DNA of 41,360 nucleotides from Gemmatimonadota bacterium (GTDB lineage Bacteria > Gemmatimonadota > Gemmatimonadetes > Gemmatimonadales > Gemmatimonadaceae), in NCBI GenBank assembly GCA_028287225.1, contig JAQBPZ010000111.1:1-41360 (forward strand), read 5' to 3'. Below are positions 16,658 through 29,360 of this stretch, in pieces. How positions within the stretch are numbered: position 1 is the first letter of the stretch; every line of letters begins with the position of its first letter. The notes under the pieces were generated by a model. It worked only from the letters and a program-made list of their open reading frames with translations, ran no database searches and was not told the DNA's origin. A program made the position numbers and the translations under genes.

Positions 16658-16686
16658 TTGCGCGAAAAAACCCGTGCACCTATCTT
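16658..16686 (+). promoter_or_regulatory. Sigma-70-like promoter candidate for the ATP-grasp/GNAT/kamA operon
   Basis: TTGCGC (16658-16663), 17-nt spacer, TATCTT (16681-16686), in a local AT-rich patch. This leaves a ~130-nt 5' UTR. Confidence 0.35.
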
Positions 16687-16822
16687 CGCCGTGCGCTGTG
16701 CGTGGCGTGGCTCTTGCCCGCGTGCACCGTGTACGTGAGCGACGACCCGCACGCTCGCTCCTCGCGTGATCTCGCGGCGATCCGGCGGCACTCTCACGAC
16801 AGCAGCCCACAGCAGGGACGGG

Positions 16823-17968
16823 ATGACGCGCATCGGTTTCGCGTACAATCAGAAGCCCGACCCTTCGGCCCCGGCAGCGGTGCCCGATGCGGCCGAGCCG
16901 GCCCTCGCCGACGAGGAGCCGCCCAGTAGGGACGGCGCGCTGGCGACGCTGGCGACGCGCGCCGCGCCGCGCCTCTCGCCCGTGACCCACGACGACGAGT
17001 ACGCCGAGTGGGACAGCGCCGAGACGATCGACGCCGTGGAACGCGCCCTCGCGCGGTACGGCGAGGTGATCCGCCTCGAGGCCACCGACGACTTTCCGCA
17101 GCGCCTCCGCCACGCGCGCCCGGACATCGTCTTCAACATCGCCGAGGGCCTCCGCGGGCCGAACCGCGAAGCGCACGTGCCGGCCATCTGCGAGTTCTAC
17201 GGGGTGCCGTACTCCGGCAGCGACCCGTTCACGCTCGCCCTCTGCCTCGACAAGGCGCGCACCAAGGAGATTCTCCGCGCCCACGCGGTGCCCACCGCCG
17301 ACTGGTTCCTCGTGCGCAGCCACCAGGCGCTGGGCGCGCTCGACCTGGGCGCGCTGCGCTTTCCGCTGTTCGCCAAGCCCGTGCACGAGGGCTCCTCCAA
17401 GGGCATCACGGAGCGGAACTTCGTGTCGTCCGCCGCGGAGCTCACGCTCGTGGTGGGCGAGCTGCTCGAGCGCTACCAGCAGCCGGTGATCGTGGAGACC
17501 TTCCTTCCCGGCGCGGAGTTCACCTGCGGCGTCCTGGGCAACGGCGCCCGCGCGCGCGTGCTGCCCATCGTGGGCATGAACTTCGGCGCGCTGCCGGCGG
17601 GCGCGCTGCCCATCTACGGGTTCGAGGCGAAGTGGCTCTGGGACCGCCCGGAGCACCCGCTCCCGATCTTCGAGTGCCCGGCACCCGTGGACGACCGGAC
17701 TCGCGACGAGATCGTGGACGTGGTCCTTCGCGCCTTCGAGGCGCTGGGGTGCCGTGACTGGACGCGGGTGGACGTGCGGCTCGACGCCGCCGGCCGCGCG
17801 AACGTCGTGGAGGTGAACCCGCTGCCGGGCATCCTCCCCGATCCCACGGACAACTCGTGCCTCCCGAAGGCCGCACGCGCCGCCGGCATCGGCTACGACG
17901 CGCTCATCGGTGCCTGCCTGGAGGCCGCCGCCGACCGCCATGGCCTCGCGCTGGACACGCGCCGATGA
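16823..17968 (+). CDS. ATP-grasp ligase, D-Ala-D-Ala ligase-like (1 of 2)
   Basis: ATG 16823. Ddl-like pattern: NIAEGLRGPNREAHVPAICEFYGVPYSGS, LCLDKARTKEIL, FAKPVHEGSSKGI, EVNPLPGI. Confidence 0.85.
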   Translation: MTRIGFAYNQKPDPSAPAAVPDAAEPALADEEPPSRDGALATLATRAAPRLSPVTHDDEYAEWDSAETIDAVERALARYGEVIRLEATDDFPQRLRHARPDIVFNIAEGLRGPNREAHVPAICEFYGVPYSGSDPFTLALCLDKARTKEILRAHAVPTADWFLVRSHQALGALDLGALRFPLFAKPVHEGSSKGITERNFVSSAAELTLVVGELLERYQQPVIVETFLPGAEFTCGVLGNGARARVLPIVGMNFGALPAGALPIYGFEAKWLWDRPEHPLPIFECPAPVDDRTRDEIVDVVLRAFEALGCRDWTRVDVRLDAAGRANVVEVNPLPGILPDPTDNSCLPKAARAAGIGYDALIGACLEAAADRHGLALDTRR

Positions 17969-19020
17969 AGATCGCCATCCTCTTCGACGGCCTCAGCGCG
18001 GCGTCGCCGGACCAGCTCATCGTCACCACCGTGGACGCGGTGGCCATGGAGCTCGCCGGTGAGGGAAACGAGATCGTGCGCCTCCCGGTCAGCCCGGACG
18101 CGCGGTGGATCGAGCGGCTGCGGCGCGCGCGCGTGGACTTCGTGTTCAACCTCTGCGAGTCGGTGGACGGCGTCGCCGCGCTGGAGCCGCCCGTCATCGC
18201 CGTGCTCGAGCTGCTCGGCCTGCCGTACAGCGGCAGCTCCAGCTGGACGGCCGCGCTCTGCCTGCGGAAGCACGTGGTGAACGCCGCGTTGGAAGGGGCC
18301 GGCCTCCCCGTCCCACGATTCGCCGTCGTGCGCCGCGGCGGTGCCGTGCCCTCCGTCGGCTTTCCCGCCATCTGCAAGCCGGCGGCGGAGGACGCGTCCA
18401 TCGGCGTGGAGCAGCGCTCCGTCGTGCGCACCACGCGGCAGCTCACCGAGCGCGTGGGCGCGATGCTCGAGCGCTGGGACGAAGTGCTGGTGCAGCGGTA
18501 CATCGAGGGGCGCGAGGTGAACGTCGGCATCCTGGGCGACGCCACGCTGCCCATCGCCGAGATCGACTTCGGCCAGATGCCCAAGGGCATGTGGCGCATC
18601 GTGACCTACCGGAGCAAGTGGGAAACCGGGTGCGACGAGGACCTCGGCTCCTCCCCGCGCTGCCCGGCGCGCCTGCCGGCCGGCGTCGCCACGCAGCTGC
18701 GCCGGACCGCCGTCGCCGCCTGGCGGCTCGTCGGTGGCTCGGGCTACGGGCGCGTGGACTTCCGCATCGACGAGCGCGGGCGCCCGTGGATCCTCGAGGT
18801 CAACGCCAACCCCGACATCGCCCCGGATGCGGGGCTGGCACGAATGGCCCGCGTCGCGGGCATCGAGTACGGCGCAATGGTGCGGCGCGTGTGCGAGCTC
18901 GGCCTCCAGCGCGGGCGCGCGGACGGCGCCACCGCGGACAAGTGGGCGCTCGCCCAGCGGCTCTCCGGCGTGCCGACGGCCGACGCCGAGCCCGACCTGT
19001 TCACCATCGGCGAGGCCTAG
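17965..19020 (+). CDS. ATP-grasp ligase, D-Ala-D-Ala ligase-like (2 of 2)
   Basis: ATGA overlap at 17965-17968. Motifs: NLCESVDG, LELLGLPYSGS, LCLRKHVVN, CKPAAEDASIGV, EVNANPDI. Confidence 0.85.
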   Translation: MKIAILFDGLSAASPDQLIVTTVDAVAMELAGEGNEIVRLPVSPDARWIERLRRARVDFVFNLCESVDGVAALEPPVIAVLELLGLPYSGSSSWTAALCLRKHVVNAALEGAGLPVPRFAVVRRGGAVPSVGFPAICKPAAEDASIGVEQRSVVRTTRQLTERVGAMLERWDEVLVQRYIEGREVNVGILGDATLPIAEIDFGQMPKGMWRIVTYRSKWETGCDEDLGSSPRCPARLPAGVATQLRRTAVAAWRLVGGSGYGRVDFRIDERGRPWILEVNANPDIAPDAGLARMARVAGIEYGAMVRRVCELGLQRGRADGATADKWALAQRLSGVPTADAEPDLFTIGEA

Positions 19021-19028
19021 CGACCGCC

Positions 19029-19583
19029 ATGCGAATTGCGCCGTTGCGGGCTGCCGATCGTGCGCGTCTTTCGCAGTTGCTGGTCTCCACCGGTGCGTTC
19101 AACGCCGAGGAGGTGCAGGTGGCCCTCTCGCTCTTCGACCTCTCGATGGACGAGCCGCGCGGGCGCGCGGGCCCGGTGCCGGGCGCACCCTCCACGACGA
19201 GCGTCGCGGATGATGCCATGGATTACGAGTTCATCGGGGCGTACGACGGGGAGCGGTTGATGGGCTACGCATGCTTCGGCCCGACGCCCTCCACCGAGGG
19301 AACGTTCGACCTGTACTGGCTCGCGGTGGATCCGGTGGCGCAGGGACGCGGCGTCGGACGCGCGATGCTGCGTGACGTGGAACGGCGGCTGGCCGATCGC
19401 GGGGCACGGCTCCTCGTGGCCGAGACCTCGGGACGGCCCGACTACGCCGCGACGCGCGCGTTCTACCTGGCCACGGGCTACACGGTGGCGGCGACGGTGA
19501 AGGACTTCTACGCTCCGGCGGATGACCGGATCATGCTCCACAGACGGCTCACGACACGAGAGCGCGGAGTAGCGACGCGATGA
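19029..19583 (+). CDS. GNAT family N-acetyltransferase
   Basis: ATG 19029, 8 nt after the previous stop. Acetyl-CoA motif A is VDPVAQGRGVGRAML. Confidence 0.8.
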   Translation: MRIAPLRAADRARLSQLLVSTGAFNAEEVQVALSLFDLSMDEPRGRAGPVPGAPSTTSVADDAMDYEFIGAYDGERLMGYACFGPTPSTEGTFDLYWLAVDPVAQGRGVGRAMLRDVERRLADRGARLLVAETSGRPDYAATRAFYLATGYTVAATVKDFYAPADDRIMLHRRLTTRERGVATR

Positions 19584-20770
19584 GTGATTGGCAGAAGGTT
19601 CTGCGTGACGACAGCATCAGCACCCTGGAGCAGCTCAGGGCGTACGTCGCAGAGCGCTTCGGTGAAGAGGCCGCGGCCCGCGAGATCGACGTGGAGGCCC
19701 TGCGCCCCGCCTTCGACAACTTCCAGATGCGGATCACCCGCGAGTCGCTCTCGCAGATCCGCGAGGTGGGGGATGCGAACTGGAACCAGTTCATCCCCTC
19801 CGTCCAGGAGCTGGAGATCGTCGACGGCGTGATCGACTCGCTCGACGAGGACGGCGACTCCCCGGTGCCGAACATCACGCACCGCTATCCGGACCGCGCC
19901 CTCTTCCTCGTCAGCCCCGTGTGCGCGAGCTACTGCCGCTTCTGCACCCGGCGCCGCAAGGTCGGCGATCCCGAGAAGATCTCGCTCCGCGAGTACGAGT
20001 CCGCGTTCCAGTACCTCGCCGAGCACACCGAGATCCGCGACGTCATCCTCTCCGGCGGCGACCCGATGATGCTCAGCGACCAGCGGCTGGAATACATCCT
20101 CCAGCGGCTCCGCGCCATCCCGCACATCGAGATCATCCGGCTGGGCAGCCGCATCACCTCGCACCTCCCGGAGCGCGTGACGCCGGAGTTCTGCGACATG
20201 GTGCAGAAGTACCACCCGATCTTCATGAACACGCACTTCAACCACCCGAGCGAGCTCACCCCCGCCGCGGTGGCCGCCCTCGACCGCCTCTCGCGCGCGG
20301 GCGTCTCGCTCGGCTGCCAGACGGTGCTGCTCAAGGGCGTCAACGACGACCCGCACGTCATGATGAAGCTCATGCACGAGCTGCTCAAGGCGCGCGTCCG
20401 CCCCTACTACATCTACATGGCCGACCAGGTGGCGGGCGGAGAGCACTTCCGCACCACCGTCCAGAAGGGGCTCGAGATCATCCAGGCGCTCCGCGGCTGG
20501 ACGTCGGGGCTCGCCGTGCCGCAGTTCGTCATCGACGCCCCCGGCGGCGGGGGCAAGGTGCCCCTCCTGCCCGAGTACGTCGAGGAGATCACCGACGACG
20601 AGGTGATCTTCCGGAACTACGAGGGCAAGCGCTTCACCTACAAGCAGCCCAGGCAGGCCGTCCCCGACGCCGCGCCGGGCATCGCGGCCGAGGCGTCGGG
20701 CGTGGTGCCGATCGCGGCGGGCAAGAGCGCCAAGAAGCGGGCGGCCAGGCGGCGGTCCGCGAACGGCTGA
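19580..20770 (+). CDS. kamA: Lysine 2,3-aminomutase family radical SAM enzyme (KamA/AblA-like)
   Basis: ATGA overlap at 19580-19583. Radical SAM cluster motif CASYCRFCTRRR. Also SGGDP, RLGSR and VLLKGVNDD, typical of the KamA family. Confidence 0.92.
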   Translation: MSDWQKVLRDDSISTLEQLRAYVAERFGEEAAAREIDVEALRPAFDNFQMRITRESLSQIREVGDANWNQFIPSVQELEIVDGVIDSLDEDGDSPVPNITHRYPDRALFLVSPVCASYCRFCTRRRKVGDPEKISLREYESAFQYLAEHTEIRDVILSGGDPMMLSDQRLEYILQRLRAIPHIEIIRLGSRITSHLPERVTPEFCDMVQKYHPIFMNTHFNHPSELTPAAVAALDRLSRAGVSLGCQTVLLKGVNDDPHVMMKLMHELLKARVRPYYIYMADQVAGGEHFRTTVQKGLEIIQALRGWTSGLAVPQFVIDAPGGGGKVPLLPEYVEEITDDEVIFRNYEGKRFTYKQPRQAVPDAAPGIAAEASGVVPIAAGKSAKKRAARRRSANG

Positions 20771-26108: not shown

Positions 26109-28196
26109 TCAGCGCATTCCCGCTTCCTCCACCACCTTCTGCGCGGCGTCGTTCGGCATCTCCTCATAGCCGCTGAAGTGGCGCCTGAAGAGTGCGCGGC
26201 CGTGGGTCATCGACTGGAGGGCGCTGGCGTACAGGTGCAGTTCGGACTGCGGCACCACCGCGCGCACGCGGGTGCCGGGGGCGCCCTCCGCGGTCTCCGT
26301 CCCCAGGATATGTCCGCGGCGCGCCGACAGGTCGCCGAGCACGTCGCCCAGGGATTCCTCCGGCGTCACGATCTCCACCTCGTCCAGCGGCTCGAGCAGC
26401 ACCGGCTTGCACTTCGGTGCGATCGTGCGGAACGCCTGGATGCCCGCCATCCGGAACGACATCTCGTTGGAATCCACCGTGTGGTACGAGCCGTCGTAGA
26501 GCTCCACCGTGAAGTCCACGAGCGGGAAGCCCGCGAGCACGCCGCGCTCGGCCGCTTCGTGGATGCCCTTCTCCACCGCCGGGATGAACTTGCTGGGAAT
26601 CGCCCCCCCGACGAACTGGTCGGCGAACTGGATTACCTGCCCGCGGTCGGCCGGCGCGATCCGTACCCAGCAGTCGCCGAACTGCCCGCGGCCCCCCGAC
26701 TGCTTCTTGTGTCGCCCCTGGCCCTCCGCCCGCACCCGGATCGTCTCGCGATACGCGATGCGGGGGCGCCGCAGCTCCGCCGCCACCCCGCACTTCCGGC
26801 GCAGCTTCGCCAGCGCGATCTCGAGATGCCGCTCGCCCATGCCCGCGAGGATCGTCTCGTGGGTCTCCACGTTGTAGCGCGTCTGGAGCGTCGGGTCCTC
26901 GTCGTGGAGGCGATGCAGCCCTGCCTGCAGCTTTTCCTCGTCGGCGCGGTTGGTGGCGAAGATCGCCATCTCCACGAGCGGCTCGGGATACTGCACCTGC
27001 GGCAGCCGCACCGGGTGCGCGCGCGTGGACAGCGTGTCGTTCGTGTGGGTGTTGCGCAGCCGCGCGACGCAGCCGATGTCGCCCGCGTGCAGGCGCGGGA
27101 CCTCCACGCGCTCGCGCCCCTGCGGCGCGGCGAGGTGATTGAGCTTCTCGCCCACGTCGCGCGTCGCGTTGAACACCTCGTCGCCGCTCGCCACGCTCCC
27201 TGAGAGGATGCGGAAGATGCTCACCTCGCCCACGTGCGGCTCGCTCTGGGTCTTGATCACCAGCGCCGAGAACGGCGCGGCGTCGTCCGCGTGGATCTGG
27301 ACGGTGGCCGCCCCCTCCGCGCCGGTGAAGGCGTGCACCTCCTCCATCTCGTACGCGCTCGGCATCAGCTCCACGATCGTCGAGAGCACGGCGCGCGTGC
27401 CGTAGCCGAGCGTGGCGCTCACGCAGAACAGGGGGAAGAGCTCCAGCCGCTTCACCGCCTCCCGCATCGCGGCGATCGCCTCGTCGCGGCTGATCTCCCC
27501 GCCGTTCAGGTATCGCTCGAGCAGCTCGTCATCAGTTGACGCGATCGTCTCGATGAGCTCCGCGTGGTACCGGTCGAACTGCGGACGCACCTCCTCGGGC
27601 ACCGCCGTCTCCGTGTAGCCGCCGCTCCGTCCGCCGGCGGTGTAGACGTGCGCCACGCCGTCGAAGAGGTTGACGACGCCGTGAAAGTCGGCGCCGCTGC
27701 CCACCGGCACCTCGATCGGGATCACCTTGGTCGTGAGCGTCGAGCGGATCCGGCGATAGATCGCGTCGAAGTCCGCGTGCTCCTTGTCCATCATCGAGAC
27801 CACGAAGAGCACGGGATCACCGCGCGTCAGCGCCTCGCGGAACATCCGCTCCGTGCCGACCTCGATCCCCGCGGTGGCGCTGATCACGCAGAGCGCGCCG
27901 TCGGCCGCGGCGAGGCCCGCGATCGCGTCGCCCTGGAAGTCCAGGAAGCCCGGGGTATCCAGCAGGTTGATCTTGGTGCCGGCCCACTCGGCATGCGCGC
28001 AGCCGAGGTTGATGGAGTAGCCCCGCTCCACCTCTTCCGGCGCCGTGTCCGTGAGGGTCGTGCCCTCGGCGATGGAGCCGTGGCGGCGGGTGGTGCCCGA
28101 CGCGAACGCCAGCGCGTCCACCAGCGTGGTCTTGCCACTGCCCCCGTGTCCCACCACGGCGATGTTGCGGATGCTCGATGCCCGGTACGCTCGCAT
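26109..28196 (-). CDS. Elongation factor G paralogue with non-canonical G motifs
   Basis: Full five-domain EF-G colinearity. Start is the ATG at 28194-28196, preceded by GAGG. G1 is GHGGSGKTT, G3 is DTPGFLDF, G4 is SMMD. Confidence 0.9.
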   Translation of the reverse strand: MRAYRASSIRNIAVVGHGGSGKTTLVDALAFASGTTRRHGSIAEGTTLTDTAPEEVERGYSINLGCAHAEWAGTKINLLDTPGFLDFQGDAIAGLAAADGALCVISATAGIEVGTERMFREALTRGDPVLFVVSMMDKEHADFDAIYRRIRSTLTTKVIPIEVPVGSGADFHGVVNLFDGVAHVYTAGGRSGGYTETAVPEEVRPQFDRYHAELIETIASTDDELLERYLNGGEISRDEAIAAMREAVKRLELFPLFCVSATLGYGTRAVLSTIVELMPSAYEMEEVHAFTGAEGAATVQIHADDAAPFSALVIKTQSEPHVGEVSIFRILSGSVASGDEVFNATRDVGEKLNHLAAPQGRERVEVPRLHAGDIGCVARLRNTHTNDTLSTRAHPVRLPQVQYPEPLVEMAIFATNRADEEKLQAGLHRLHDEDPTLQTRYNVETHETILAGMGERHLEIALAKLRRKCGVAAELRRPRIAYRETIRVRAEGQGRHKKQSGGRGQFGDCWVRIAPADRGQVIQFADQFVGGAIPSKFIPAVEKGIHEAAERGVLAGFPLVDFTVELYDGSYHTVDSNEMSFRMAGIQAFRTIAPKCKPVLLEPLDEVEIVTPEESLGDVLGDLSARRGHILGTETAEGAPGTRVRAVVPQSELHLYASALQSMTHGRALFRRHFSGYEEMPNDAAQKVVEEAGMR

Positions 28197-28210
28197 GCGT
28201 CTGCCTCGTG

Positions 28211-28387
28211 CTATGAGTAGGTGCCCGCGCACGGAGGCCACTGTCGGGACGCACGAAAAAGGGCGCCTTCGGGGGCGATGCGCGTCGTGCGCGCGTCGCT
28301 CCTGAGGCGCCCTGCTTCTTCGTCCGGCAACACGCGCTCCCGCCCGGAGTCCCCGGGCCTGGAGTGGTGAGTGGAGAGCCGTGGCAT
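28211..28387 (-). CDS. Candidate 58-codon leader ORF upstream of the EF-G paralogue
   Basis: AGGAGGAGG lies 7 nt before the ATG (28385-28387). The TAG at 28211-28213 is 14 nt before the EF-G ATG. The ORF spans the terminator hairpin. GC3 is lower than in neighbouring genes, so coding status is uncertain. Confidence 0.25.
   Translation of the reverse strand: MPRLSTHHSRPGDSGRERVLPDEEAGRLRSDARTTRIAPEGALFRASRQWPPCAGTYS
28255..28313 (-). terminator. Intrinsic terminator/attenuator in the EF-G paralogue leader
   Basis: AGGGCGCC (28260-28267) pairs with GGCGCCCT (28306-28313). An inner stem is GCGATGCGCG/CGCGCGTCGC. The hairpin is followed on the minus strand by TTTTT (28256-28260). Confidence 0.6.
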
Positions 28388-28501
28388 GGCCCCACCTCCT
28401 CCTGCGGTCGCCCTACTGATGCATCATCCCCGTGGGAGTGTCAAGCAGGCCCAAGGAAACGGGTGGTCCCAGGACTGCGTTTGCGTGATCCCTCAGTCGA
28501 G

Positions 28502-28700
28502 GGGGGAGACCGCATTTGACGGATGCCACGGATCAGAACGGATAACGGCCGCTCTATCAGCCCCGGCGAACCGACCCCGGATCTGGAGCCTCCGGAAATC
28601 ACGGAGGTGTTCGTGGGCGTGGCGCTGTACCCATCCACGACGAGGCCAGCCGAGCGATAATCCGTTTCACCCGTGGCATCCGTCAAATGTTGTCTCCCCC
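28502..28700. repeat. 199-bp structured element bounded by 30-bp inverted repeats
   Basis: GGGGGAGACCGCATTTGACGGATGCCACGG (28502-28531) matches the reverse complement of 28671-28700 at 28/30. Internal hairpin CCTCCG/CGGAGG at 28589-28607. Confidence 0.8.
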
Positions 28701-28731
28701 TTCCAGTGAGGGGCCGGCCCTGGCGATACAG

Positions 28732-28770
28732 GAATGGCCAGGCGCCGGACGAGTCCGGGCCTGGCCATTC
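28732..28770 (-). terminator. Long hairpin downstream of the 181-aa gene
   Basis: GAATGGCCAGGC (28732-28743) pairs with GCCTGGCCATTC (28759-28770), and inner CCGGAC pairs with GTCCGG. No U tract. Confidence 0.45.
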
Positions 28771-28814
28771 ACGAACGAGACGGTGTGCAGGTCAGACGAG
28801 GCAGGCTTCGTCGC

Positions 28815-29360
28815 TCATTCTCCTTCGTACTCGTACGCGAGCGAATCGGCTTCGCGGAGCCGGTCCAGCAGCGATTCCAGCGGAGCGAACACCGGCGCCG
28901 CCAGGCCGGCGACCGGCTCCAGCGAGATGGTGATCGCGCGCCGAGCGCCTTCGGGCCAGTCGGGCATCGAGAGGCCGGCCACCAGGCGGCGGATCAGCTG
29001 GCCGCACTCGCTCAGCAGCTGCGTCGCCGTACCGTGCAGGATGTCCAGCGGGATCTCGAGATCGCGGCTCATCAGCTCACCGGTGCCGACGTCGCGCCAC
29101 GCCGCATCACCGATGGCGCCGTGCTCCGCCCACACGCCGAGATGGCGGATGGCGTTCGGGTATTCATGTCCTTCGCCGGTGCGGTGCGACTCCACCGCGG
29201 CCGCCAGCGCGAGCGCCAGCAGCTCCGGGCTCGGCACGCCGTACAGCGTCACGATGTCACGCGCGGGCCGATTGGACGCGAGCGGGGACGTGACGGAGTT
29301 GACGTGCGCGAGCACCGGCGAATGATCGGGATTCTCGTCGAGCATGACGAGGACGTCCAT
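28815..29360 (-). CDS. Hypothetical protein (181 aa), acidic C-terminus
   Basis: ATG 29358-29360 is preceded by AGGAGGGGG. The longer 213-aa track ORF is the alternative. No family recognised. Confidence 0.6.
   Translation of the reverse strand: MDVLVMLDENPDHSPVLAHVNSVTSPLASNRPARDIVTLYGVPSPELLALALAAAVESHRTGEGHEYPNAIRHLGVWAEHGAIGDAAWRDVGTGELMSRDLEIPLDILHGTATQLLSECGQLIRRLVAGLSMPDWPEGARRAITISLEPVAGLAAPVFAPLESLLDRLREADSLAYEYEGE

What the first reader, a model, noticed from the sequence alone, without database searches (positions are those of the whole stretch)
26109..28196. EF-G paralogue lacking the catalytic histidine and with a degenerate NKxD motif
Seen: G1 reads GHGGSGKTT, where the canonical motif is AHxDxGKTT. 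G3 reads DTPGFLDF, where the canonical motif is DTPGHVDF; the Phe codon is at 27945-27947. G4 reads VVSMMDKE, where the canonical motif is VNKMD. Established knowledge: the His of DTPGH positions the hydrolytic water in translational GTPases, and N/K of NKxD contribute to guanine recognition. Inference: this is not a standard translocase. It may bind nucleotide without ribosome-stimulated hydrolysis, or use altered nucleotide chemistry, consistent with a regulatory or rescue role and with the attenuator-like leader upstream.
Basis: partly seen in the sequence, partly recalled or inferred. Interest (0 to 1): 0.6.

Follow-up and report, generated by a model that had tools for sequence, protein, structure and literature searches.

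The report
His-less EF-G2 paralogue of Gemmatimonadota
This gene is a second, divergent copy of translation elongation factor G of the already described EF-G2 (EFG II) type.

Summary
The 695-aa protein (26109-28196, minus strand) reads GHGGSGKTT, RGYSI, DTPGF and SMMD. Phe84 (27945-27947) aligns without gaps to the catalytic His of solved EF-Gs. A fully canonical fusA lies on another contig of the same genome.

The gene belongs to the known EFG II / EF-G2 subfamily, and NCBIfam NF009381 is passed. An orthologue occurs in 121 of 151 sampled Gemmatimonadota genomes, in one well-supported clade.

Among 40 orthologues the 'His' position is Tyr (29), Phe (7) or Ser (4), never His. Phe arose several times, so His-to-Phe does not define a clade. 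The Lys of NKxD is absent in all 40 (Met, Leu, Gln or Ala); the Asp is kept.

Characterised relatives show the same losses: M. smegmatis EF-G2 (Tyr, no ribosome-dependent GTPase), B. thetaiotaomicron EF-G2 (Ser, GTP-independent slow translation) and T. thermophilus EF-G-2 (Tyr, yet it hydrolyses GTP).

Most likely it is a GTP-binding alternative translocation or stress factor without canonical ribosome-activated hydrolysis.

The upstream 'attenuator' is not conserved. It lies inside a small conserved ORF.

Earlier follow-ups of this scan reached the same verdict on other genomes. Verdict: new member of a known kind, low to moderate interest.

The parts
26109..28196 (-). EF-G2-type (EFG II) paralogue gene, 695 aa plus stop
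   Evidence: Open frame. Five EF-G Pfam domains. NF009381 scores 830 bits against a cut-off of 583. Orthologues across the phylum.
27357..28175 (-). G domain with G' insert (residues 8-280)
   Evidence: PF00009 matches residues 8-280.
28125..28151 (-). G1 / P-loop GHGGSGKTT. Gly16 and Leu25 are EFG II signatures. The Ile and Asp of canonical AHIDAGKT are both replaced by Gly.
   Evidence: EFG II positions 16 and 25 are described in PMC3150367.
28011..28025 (-). G2 / switch I RGYSI. Ser replaces the Mg-binding Thr and Tyr replaces the gate Ile.
   Evidence: Ser at this position is the EFG II rule (PMC3150367).
27945..27959 (-). G3 / switch II DTPGF. Phe84 (27945-27947) stands in place of the catalytic His.
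   Evidence: Gap-free alignment to solved EF-G structures. Tyr, Phe or Ser in 40 orthologues.
27786..27797 (-). G4 SMMD in place of NKMD. Asn and Lys are lost and Asp137 is kept.
27411..27419 (-). G5 SAT (the SA of gSAx is kept)
27024..27275 (-). Domain II
   Evidence: PF22042 matches residues 308-391.
26769..26987 (-). Domain III
   Evidence: PF14492 matches residues 404-476.
26409..26765 (-). Domain IV
   Evidence: PF03764 matches residues 478-596.
26676..26699 (-). Domain IV tip loop SGGRGQFG, identical in all 120 close homologues
26469..26486 (-). Domain IV loop YHTVDS (canonical YHDVDS); the His is invariant
26136..26402 (-). Domain V
   Evidence: PF00679 matches residues 599-687.
28211..28387 (-). 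58-codon small ORF with a strong Shine-Dalgarno sequence, ending 14 nt before the EF-G2 ATG. It is a shortened homologue of an 85-87-aa ORF in three related genomes, and the window-specific terminator-like hairpin lies inside it.

Best explanation
The gene encodes the Gemmatimonadota lineage of the EF-G2 (EFG II) family, an old second copy of elongation factor G kept alongside a canonical fusA.

Shown: it has the full five-domain EF-G fold. It keeps the nucleotide-binding core: the P-loop GKT, the switch I Ser, DxxG, the guanine-specific Asp of G4 and the SA of G5. It also keeps the domain IV tip loops that reach the decoding centre.

Shown: the parts that canonical EF-G uses for hydrolysis activated by the sarcin-ricin loop (SRL) are all replaced. 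These are the switch II His (now Tyr, Phe or Ser), the P-loop Ile-Asp (now Gly-Gly) and the switch I gate Ile (now Tyr). The Asn and Lys of NKxD are also replaced.

Inferred: the protein binds GTP, probably weakly, and docks on the ribosome like EF-G. It promotes or stabilises translocation-type states with little or no ribosome-stimulated GTP hydrolysis. In other words it would be a slow, low-energy alternative translocase or a stress-phase ribosome factor, as described for B. thetaiotaomicron and M. smegmatis EF-G2.

Odds: about 0.9 that it is an EFG II member, and about 0.45-0.5 that ribosome-activated hydrolysis is lost.
For: Family and fold:
- All five EF-G domains are present.
- NF009381 is passed, while TIGR00484, NF009377 and NF058620 are not.
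- The AlphaFold2 model has pLDDT 92.4. Its TM-scores are 0.95 to ribosome-bound E. coli EF-G (7N2V), 0.91 to M. smegmatis EF-G2 (9K0Z) and 0.86 to B. thetaiotaomicron EF-G2 (8DMF).

Paralogue status and distribution:
- A canonical fusA is in the same genome.
- An orthologue is found in 121 of 151 sampled Gemmatimonadota genomes.
- Identity falls with taxonomic distance: 78% (genus), 63-71% (family), 54-59% (order), 46-54% (class) and 44-49% (phylum). Canonical EF-G falls in parallel: 91, 81-88, 73-80, 66-73 and 61-63%.
- The orthologues form one clade with support 100.

Motifs:
- None of the 40 orthologues has His after DxPG or Lys in G4, while GKT, D80, G83, the switch I Ser and D137 are kept.
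- The domain IV loops SGGRGQ(F/Y)G and H-x-VDS are conserved.
- EFG II signatures are present: Gly16, Leu25 and Ser in G2 (PMC3150367).

Characterised relatives with the same losses:
- M. smegmatis EF-G2 has H88 replaced by Y98 and minimal ribosome-dependent GTPase. The H88Y mutation in M. smegmatis EF-G1 nearly abolishes GTPase (preprint 10.64898/2026.05.25.727771).
- B. thetaiotaomicron EF-G2 reads DCPGS and NQLD. It enables GTP-independent translation and is induced by carbon limitation (PMC10294740, PMC6989115).
Against: T. thermophilus EF-G-2 has the same type of G domain (GHAGSGKT, DAPGY, TKLD). [quoted passage not shown] Absence of the His therefore does not prove absence of hydrolysis.

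There is no biochemical or expression-condition evidence for any Gemmatimonadota member.

Gene neighbourhood differs between families and gives no functional pointer.

The protein does not pass the NCBIfam models for either of the two characterised hydrolysis-deficient EF-G2 types.
Confidence: 0.6

Rival explanations
1. It is an active GTPase translocase despite lacking the His, like T. thermophilus EF-G-2. It would be a second, fully catalytic elongation factor that uses another way of activating the water.
For: 1WDT reads GHAGSGKT, DAPGY and TKLD and is reported to hydrolyse GTP and support poly(Phe) synthesis (PMC3150367). The Gemmatimonadota protein keeps the P-loop His17 that M. smegmatis EF-G2 has lost. 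The domain IV loops are conserved.
Against: Within the phylum clade the position switches freely between Tyr, Phe and Ser, so no hydroxyl-based substitute for the His can be required. Lys of G4 is also lost, which 1WDT keeps. H88Y nearly abolishes GTPase in a canonical EF-G.
Confidence: 0.2
2. It is a non-translocating, stress-phase ribosome-binding regulator, as proposed for mycobacterial EF-G2. It would occupy the factor site on 70S or 50S particles in stationary phase rather than driving elongation.
For: M. smegmatis EF-G2 has minimal GTPase, no recycling activity and a proposed stress-specific role; structures 9K0Z and 9K10 exist. The model's TM-score to 9K0Z is 0.91. The gene was not found in 30 of 151 genomes, which fits a dispensable accessory factor.
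Against: The decoding-centre loops of domain IV are strictly conserved, which a mere site-blocker would not obviously need. The NF009377 score of 639 is below the cut-off of 890. The P-loop differs from the mycobacterial GPSGG.
Confidence: 0.15
3. It is a ribosomal protection or antibiotic-resistance factor: a Tet(M)/(O)-like protein, or an EF-G copy insensitive to fusidic acid or argyrin.
For: It has the same superfamily and domain order. Soil bacteria meet translation inhibitors.
Against: The tet_protect NF012153 score of 287 is far below the cut-off of 775, and the Tet(M)/(O) models score lower still. Tet proteins keep the catalytic His (established knowledge). The gene is inherited vertically across the phylum rather than being mobile.
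Confidence: 0.04
4. It is a decaying duplicate with no function.
For: The catalytic motifs are degenerate, it evolves faster than EF-G1, and it is lost patchily.
Against: The frames are intact in all 40 orthologues fetched. More than 100 sequence clusters share about 80% identity. The 'degenerate' motifs are themselves conserved, and GKT, DxxG and the domain IV loops are invariant.
Confidence: 0.01

Closest known systems
EFG II subfamily of elongation factor G (Margus, Remm & Tenson 2011, PMC3150367); NCBIfam NF009381
   Same: It has five EF-G domains and co-exists with an EFG I copy. G1 starts with Gly (GHxxxGKT) and is followed by Leu25. G2 has Ser instead of Thr within a relaxed RGITI. DxPG and SA are kept. 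It evolves faster than EFG I.
   Different: Gemmatimonadota were not among the sub-subgroups described in that paper. G4 is not NKxD: Lys is absent in all 40 orthologues and Asn in 35 of them. That paper did not discuss the residue after DxPG.
Thermus thermophilus EF-G-2 (PDB 1WDT / 2DY1)
   Same: GHAGSGKT P-loop with the His kept; DAPGY (no catalytic His); the first G4 residue is not Asn (TKLD).
   Different: 1WDT keeps the G4 Lys and is 30 residues shorter. It scores 450 bits against the query, lower than canonical EF-Gs at about 510. It is reported to be an active GTPase.
Mycobacterium smegmatis EF-G2 (PDB 9K0Z / 9K10)
   Same: His replaced by an aromatic residue (Y98), switch I and the P-loop gate residues changed, G4 changed. 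Full-length TM-score 0.91.
   Different: The mycobacterial P-loop is GPSGG (the His is lost). The NF009377 score of 639 is below the cut-off of 890.
Bacteroides thetaiotaomicron EF-G2 (PDB 7UVP / 8DMF)
   Same: His replaced (DCPGS; four Gemmatimonadota orthologues also have Ser), Lys of G4 replaced (NQLD), Ser in G2. TM-score 0.86.
   Different: The NF058620 score of 578 is below the cut-off of 1000. The alignment breaks after about residue 520. The query is 23 residues shorter, so the extra region I recall being described for that protein is probably absent; this was not tested directly.

Membership tests
EFG II / EF-G2 subfamily (Margus 2011) | Full EF-G five-domain architecture | tested here: met
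   Pfam PF00009, PF22042, PF14492, PF03764 and PF00679 are all above their cut-offs. The AlphaFold2 model has a TM-score of 0.95 to EF-G.
EFG II / EF-G2 subfamily (Margus 2011) | Co-occurs with an EFG I (canonical) copy in the same genome | tested here: met
   C114:4713-6824 scores 1149 bits against TIGR00484 and has canonical motifs.
EFG II / EF-G2 subfamily (Margus 2011) | G1 GhxxxGKT with Gly16 and Leu25 | tested here: met
   GHGGSGKTTL, residues 16-25.
EFG II / EF-G2 subfamily (Margus 2011) | G2 relaxed to xxxSx (Ser instead of Thr) | tested here: met
   RGYSI. Ser is present in all 40 orthologues.
EFG II / EF-G2 subfamily (Margus 2011) | G3 DxPG and G5 SAx conserved | tested here: met
   DTPG and VSAT.
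EFG II / EF-G2 subfamily (Margus 2011) | G4 NKxD conserved | tested here: not met
   The motif is SMMD and only the Asp is kept. In the wider sample of 188 EF-G-like sequences only 77 have NK, so the criterion is loose within the family.
NCBIfam NF009381 (PRK12740.1-5, 'elongation factor G' subfamily) | HMM score above the curated cut-off | tested here: met
   830.2 bits against a cut-off of 583.
Canonical EF-G (TIGR00484 equivalog) | HMM score above the cut-off, plus AHxDxGKT, RGITI, DTPGH and NKxD | tested here: not met
   597.8 bits is below the cut-off of 659.4, and all four motifs deviate.
Mycobacterial-type EF-G2 (NF009377) | HMM score above the cut-off | tested here: not met
   638.8 bits is below the cut-off of 890.
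Bacteroides-type EF-G2 (NF058620) | HMM score above the cut-off | tested here: not met
   578.2 bits is below the cut-off of 1000. Only profile positions 1-511 of 717 align in the best stretch.
Tet(M)/(O)-type ribosomal protection proteins (NF012153) | HMM score above the cut-off | tested here: not met
   287.2 bits is below the cut-off of 775.
EFG II / EF-G2 as a functional class (hydrolysis-deficient factor) | Binds guanine nucleotide but lacks ribosome-dependent GTPase | not testable with these tools
   This needs purified protein and ribosomes.

The most novel reading that the evidence does not exclude
The phylum-wide loss of the G4 Lys (and mostly the Asn), while the guanine-specific Asp is kept, may have turned the G domain into a low-affinity GTP sensor that does not hydrolyse. 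Ribosome engagement by this factor would then track the cellular GTP or (p)ppGpp level. That would give slow-growing soil Gemmatimonadota a starvation-tuned, energy-free translocation mode. In some genera it might act together with the small proteins encoded just upstream.
Probability: 0.1. Interest if true: 0.6.

Novelty: new member of a known kind. Interest (0 to 1): 0.27.

Why it matters
Public annotation names these proteins simply 'elongation factor G'. That hides the fact that about 80% of sampled Gemmatimonadota carry a second factor without the catalytic His. The Tyr/Phe/Ser interchange within one clade is a natural experiment: it argues that this side chain has no catalytic role in EF-G2s. 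This is useful for the open question of how, or whether, EF-G2s hydrolyse GTP. Beyond that, the finding adds one phylum to a family whose His-less state is already documented.

Tried and rejected
- Rfam scan of the leader region (28000-29000): only a sub-threshold miRNA hit, which is chance.
- Terminator scan: the tool did not call the long hairpin plus T5 on the minus strand. Comparison of leaders from 23 related loci showed no conserved terminator.
- Sequencing runs: one soil metatranscriptome study. One 160-nt contig is identical to 27000-27150. All other pieces were 18-42 nt and came from relatives. This is too little to claim expression.
- Gene-neighbourhood clustering in 21 loci: no neighbour is shared across the phylum.
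- Protein Atlas search for the upstream 181-aa protein: only weak HEPN-like leads, with a top score of 0.93 to unnamed clusters. Pfam found nothing for it or for the small ORF.
- The canonical fusA locus (L001) showed no rpsG or rpsL directly upstream within the piece fetched, so I make no claim about a str operon.
- I could not inspect the AlphaFold2 model residue by residue. The placement of Phe84 at the His position therefore rests on gap-free sequence alignments, not on structural superposition.
- One call returned nothing because the E-value limit was set too strictly; it was repeated.
Full report
**1. Observation**

The minus-strand frame 28196-26109 is open and encodes 695 residues.
- GHGGSGKTT at residues 16-24
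- DTPGFLDF at residues 80-87, with Phe84 encoded by 27945-27947
- FVVSMMDKE at residues 131-139

Switch I reads RGYSI and G5 reads VSAT. HMMER alignments to solved EF-G structures run without gaps through the whole G domain. They put Phe84 opposite the catalytic His of DTPGH and SMMD opposite NKMD. The ATG at 28196 is the homologous start in nearly all orthologues. Pfam finds all five EF-G domains.

**2. A paralogue, with a canonical fusA elsewhere**

The window's genome is a 92%-complete assembly of 415 contigs. Its close protein relatives are labelled Gemmatimonadaceae or Gemmatimonadota. Contig C114 carries a gene that scores 1149 bits against TIGR00484. That gene has fully canonical motifs: AHIDAGKTT, RGITI, DTPGH and NKMD.

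The query itself falls below the cut-offs for several NCBIfam models:
- canonical EF-G (598 bits; cut-off 659)
- mycobacterial EF-G2 (639; cut-off 890)
- Bacteroides EF-G2 (578; cut-off 1000)
- Tet-type protection proteins (287; cut-off 775)

It clearly passes the subfamily model NF009381, with 830 bits against a cut-off of 583.

**3. Distribution and conservation**

More than 100 sequence clusters at 79-85% identity exist in public data. In them the odd motifs are themselves conserved. At least 118 of 120 have Phe, and the G4 motif is (T/S)MMD. The domain IV loops SGGRGQFG and YH(T/S)VDSNE are practically invariant.

In 151 Gemmatimonadota genomes sampled evenly across the phylum, an orthologue is present in 121, covering all 12 families. 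I counted as orthologues the matches with at least 44% identity and about 615 bits or more. They are clearly separated from the canonical-EF-G matches, which have 38-40% identity and about 525 bits. It was not found in 30 genomes, most of them at least 95% complete. These include single members of genera whose other members have it. That pattern fits a dispensable accessory gene.

Identity to the window protein falls with taxonomic distance, in parallel with the canonical EF-G of the same genomes:

| Level | This paralogue | Canonical EF-G |
|---|---|---|
| genus | 78% | 91% |
| family | 63-71% | 81-88% |
| order | 54-59% | 73-80% |
| class | 46-54% | 66-73% |
| phylum | 44-49% | 61-63% |

The paralogue is therefore old and vertically inherited, and it evolves roughly 1.5 to 2 times faster than EF-G1. 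In a FastTree of 188 EF-G-like sequences, the Gemmatimonadota proteins form one clade with support 100. Three metagenomic representatives fall inside it.

**4. Does His-to-Phe define a clade? No.**

Among 40 orthologues spanning the phylum, the residue after DxPG is Tyr in 29, Phe in 7 and Ser in 4. It is never His. On the tree Tyr occupies all deep branches. Phe appears in at least five separate places and Ser once.

In the wider sample the counts at this position are Tyr 97, Phe 41, Asp 12, Ser 8 and His 6, with 68 state changes on the tree. That sample is the 150 best 50%-identity representatives from a 1.8-billion-protein library, plus the loci fetched here. Absence of the His is thus the rule for this whole subfamily, and the Tyr/Phe choice is labile.

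What is more particular to the Gemmatimonadota clade is G4. The Lys of NKxD is absent in all 40 orthologues: Met in 32, Leu in 6, Gln in 1 and Ala in 1. The Asn survives only in five members of the deepest families. The Asp is invariant. Even this is not unique, because only 77 of the 188 sampled proteins have NK.

**5. Comparison with what is known**

Margus, Remm and Tenson (2011, PMC3150367) defined the EFG II subfamily. Its features are a G1 that starts with Gly, a following Leu25, Ser instead of Thr in a relaxed G2, and conserved DxPG, NKxD and SAx. The query meets all of these except NKxD.

Three members have been characterised.
- **T. thermophilus EF-G-2 (1WDT).** It reads GHAGSGKT, DAPGY and TKLD. 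It binds and hydrolyses GTP and works in poly(Phe) synthesis (Connell 2007, as cited in PMC3150367).
[quoted passage not shown] A 2026 preprint (10.64898/2026.05.25.727771) gives more detail. His88 is replaced by Tyr98, which points away from the gamma-phosphate. The P-loop His-Ile-Asp that contacts the SRL and the switch I gate residues are lost. The H88Y change in EF-G1 nearly abolishes GTPase. The authors regard EF-G2 as a stress-specific factor.
- **B. thetaiotaomicron EF-G2 (7UVP / 8DMF).** It reads GSSGSGKT, DCPGS and NQLD. It is described as enabling GTP-independent translation. It is strongly induced by carbon limitation and is needed for gut colonisation (PMC10294740, PMC6989115).

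The query shares the replaced His, the replaced gate residues (Ile to Gly18, Asp to Gly19, Ile to Tyr60) and an altered G4 with the two hydrolysis-deficient proteins. It keeps the P-loop His17 as the Thermus protein does.

An AlphaFold2 model built on a 63-sequence alignment is confident (pLDDT 92.4, pTM 0.86). It superposes best on ribosome-bound, extended EF-G: TM-score 0.95 to 7N2V, 0.91 to 9K0Z and 0.86 to 8DMF. Free crystal forms give 0.65-0.7.

**6. Mechanism**

*Shown.* The nucleotide-binding core and the decoding-centre loops of domain IV are under strong constraint. The residues that couple the SRL to water activation are gone, and the substitute at the His position can be Tyr, Phe or Ser.

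*Inferred.* The protein still binds guanine nucleotide. Affinity is probably lowered by the G4 changes; by established knowledge, mutating the Asn or Lys of NKxD in Ras or EF-Tu weakens binding and speeds exchange. It would dock at the factor site with domain IV in the A site and act without canonical ribosome-activated hydrolysis. It would do so either as a slow, cheap translocase (Bacteroides model) or as a stress-phase ribosome ligand (mycobacterial model).

The free Tyr/Phe/Ser interchange argues against the idea that a Tyr hydroxyl replaces the His. The Thermus precedent still means that residual or intrinsic hydrolysis cannot be excluded. I put about 0.9 on EFG II membership and about 0.45-0.5 on loss of ribosome-activated hydrolysis.

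**7. The leader**

The hairpin plus T5 at about 28255-28313 is not present in the same-genus relative or in any of 22 other related leaders.

The 58-codon upstream ORF (28387-28211) is a shortened, in-frame homologue of an 85-87-aa ORF. That longer ORF ends 15-18 nt before the EF-G2 start in three related genomes. The T-run corresponds to Leu-Phe codons. This looks like a small, fast-evolving protein gene rather than a conserved attenuator. It has no Pfam family.

**8. Context**

No neighbour is conserved across the phylum.
- Within the window's family, a 181-aa acidic protein of no known family precedes the gene in 15 of 18 loci, at a variable distance.
- In order-level relatives, the beta-lysine cluster (lysine 2,3-aminomutase, GNAT, two ATP-grasp ligases) lies convergent and directly adjacent. 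In the window it is 5.3 kb away.
- In class-level families the gene sits between a rhomboid gene and yebC-ruvC-ruvA-ruvB, on the same strand.

These are leads, not evidence of function.

**9. Verdict**

Earlier follow-ups of this scan reached the same verdict for EF-G2-type genes in other genomes. Another first-stage note describes the same DTPGF and TMMD motifs in another genome.

New here are three points: the family's presence across Gemmatimonadota, the Tyr/Phe/Ser lability within one clade, and the clade-wide loss of the G4 Lys.

Noticed in passing
window 28211-28387 (-); L010:1225-1482 (+): The SD-led 58-codon ORF upstream of the EF-G2 gene is homologous to an 85-87-aa ORF that ends 15-18 nt before the EF-G2 start in three related genomes (same genus and two others). 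The window copy carries an in-frame deletion of about 27 codons, and the terminator-like hairpin is specific to it. It has no Pfam family. It could be a small lineage-specific partner or a leader protein.
   Followed up: partly
window 28815-29360 (-): A 181-aa acidic protein of no known family lies upstream of the EF-G2 gene, on the same strand, in 15 of 18 family-level loci. The gap varies from 158 to 621 nt.
   Followed up: partly
window 28502-28700: A roughly 200-bp element with long terminal inverted repeats (CATTTGACGGATGCCACGG and its complement) sits in the enlarged spacer between the 181-aa gene and the small ORF. The spacer is about 610-620 nt in the window and the same-genus locus and 158-570 nt elsewhere, so an insertion is plausible.
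   Followed up: no
L029-L031 (order-level relatives); window 16658-20770: The lysine 2,3-aminomutase, GNAT and two ATP-grasp ligase genes lie convergent and directly next to the EF-G2 gene in three order-level genomes. In the window the cluster is 5.3 kb away. A single Ddl-like ATP-grasp gene also lies one gene upstream of EF-G2 in class-level families. This is conserved adjacency without shared transcription, and any functional link is unknown.
   Followed up: partly
L036-L039, L041: In class-level Gemmatimonadota families the order is mutS, PALP/CBS enzyme, ATP-grasp, rhomboid, EF-G2, yebC, ruvC, ruvA, ruvB. All are on one strand, and in four of them (L036-L039) only 4-84 nt separate EF-G2 and yebC. 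YebC-family proteins have, as I recall, been linked to relief of ribosome stalling, so co-transcription would be worth testing.
   Followed up: partly
table, many genomes: The canonical fusA of many Gemmatimonadota assemblies starts 150-350 nt from a contig end. This suggests that an adjacent repeated gene (probably tuf) regularly breaks assemblies there.
   Followed up: no
G131:C2:574477-575625: One same-family genome holds only the C-terminal part (residues 307-692, 69% identity) of the paralogue in a 425-aa open frame. It may be a truncated or split copy.
   Followed up: no
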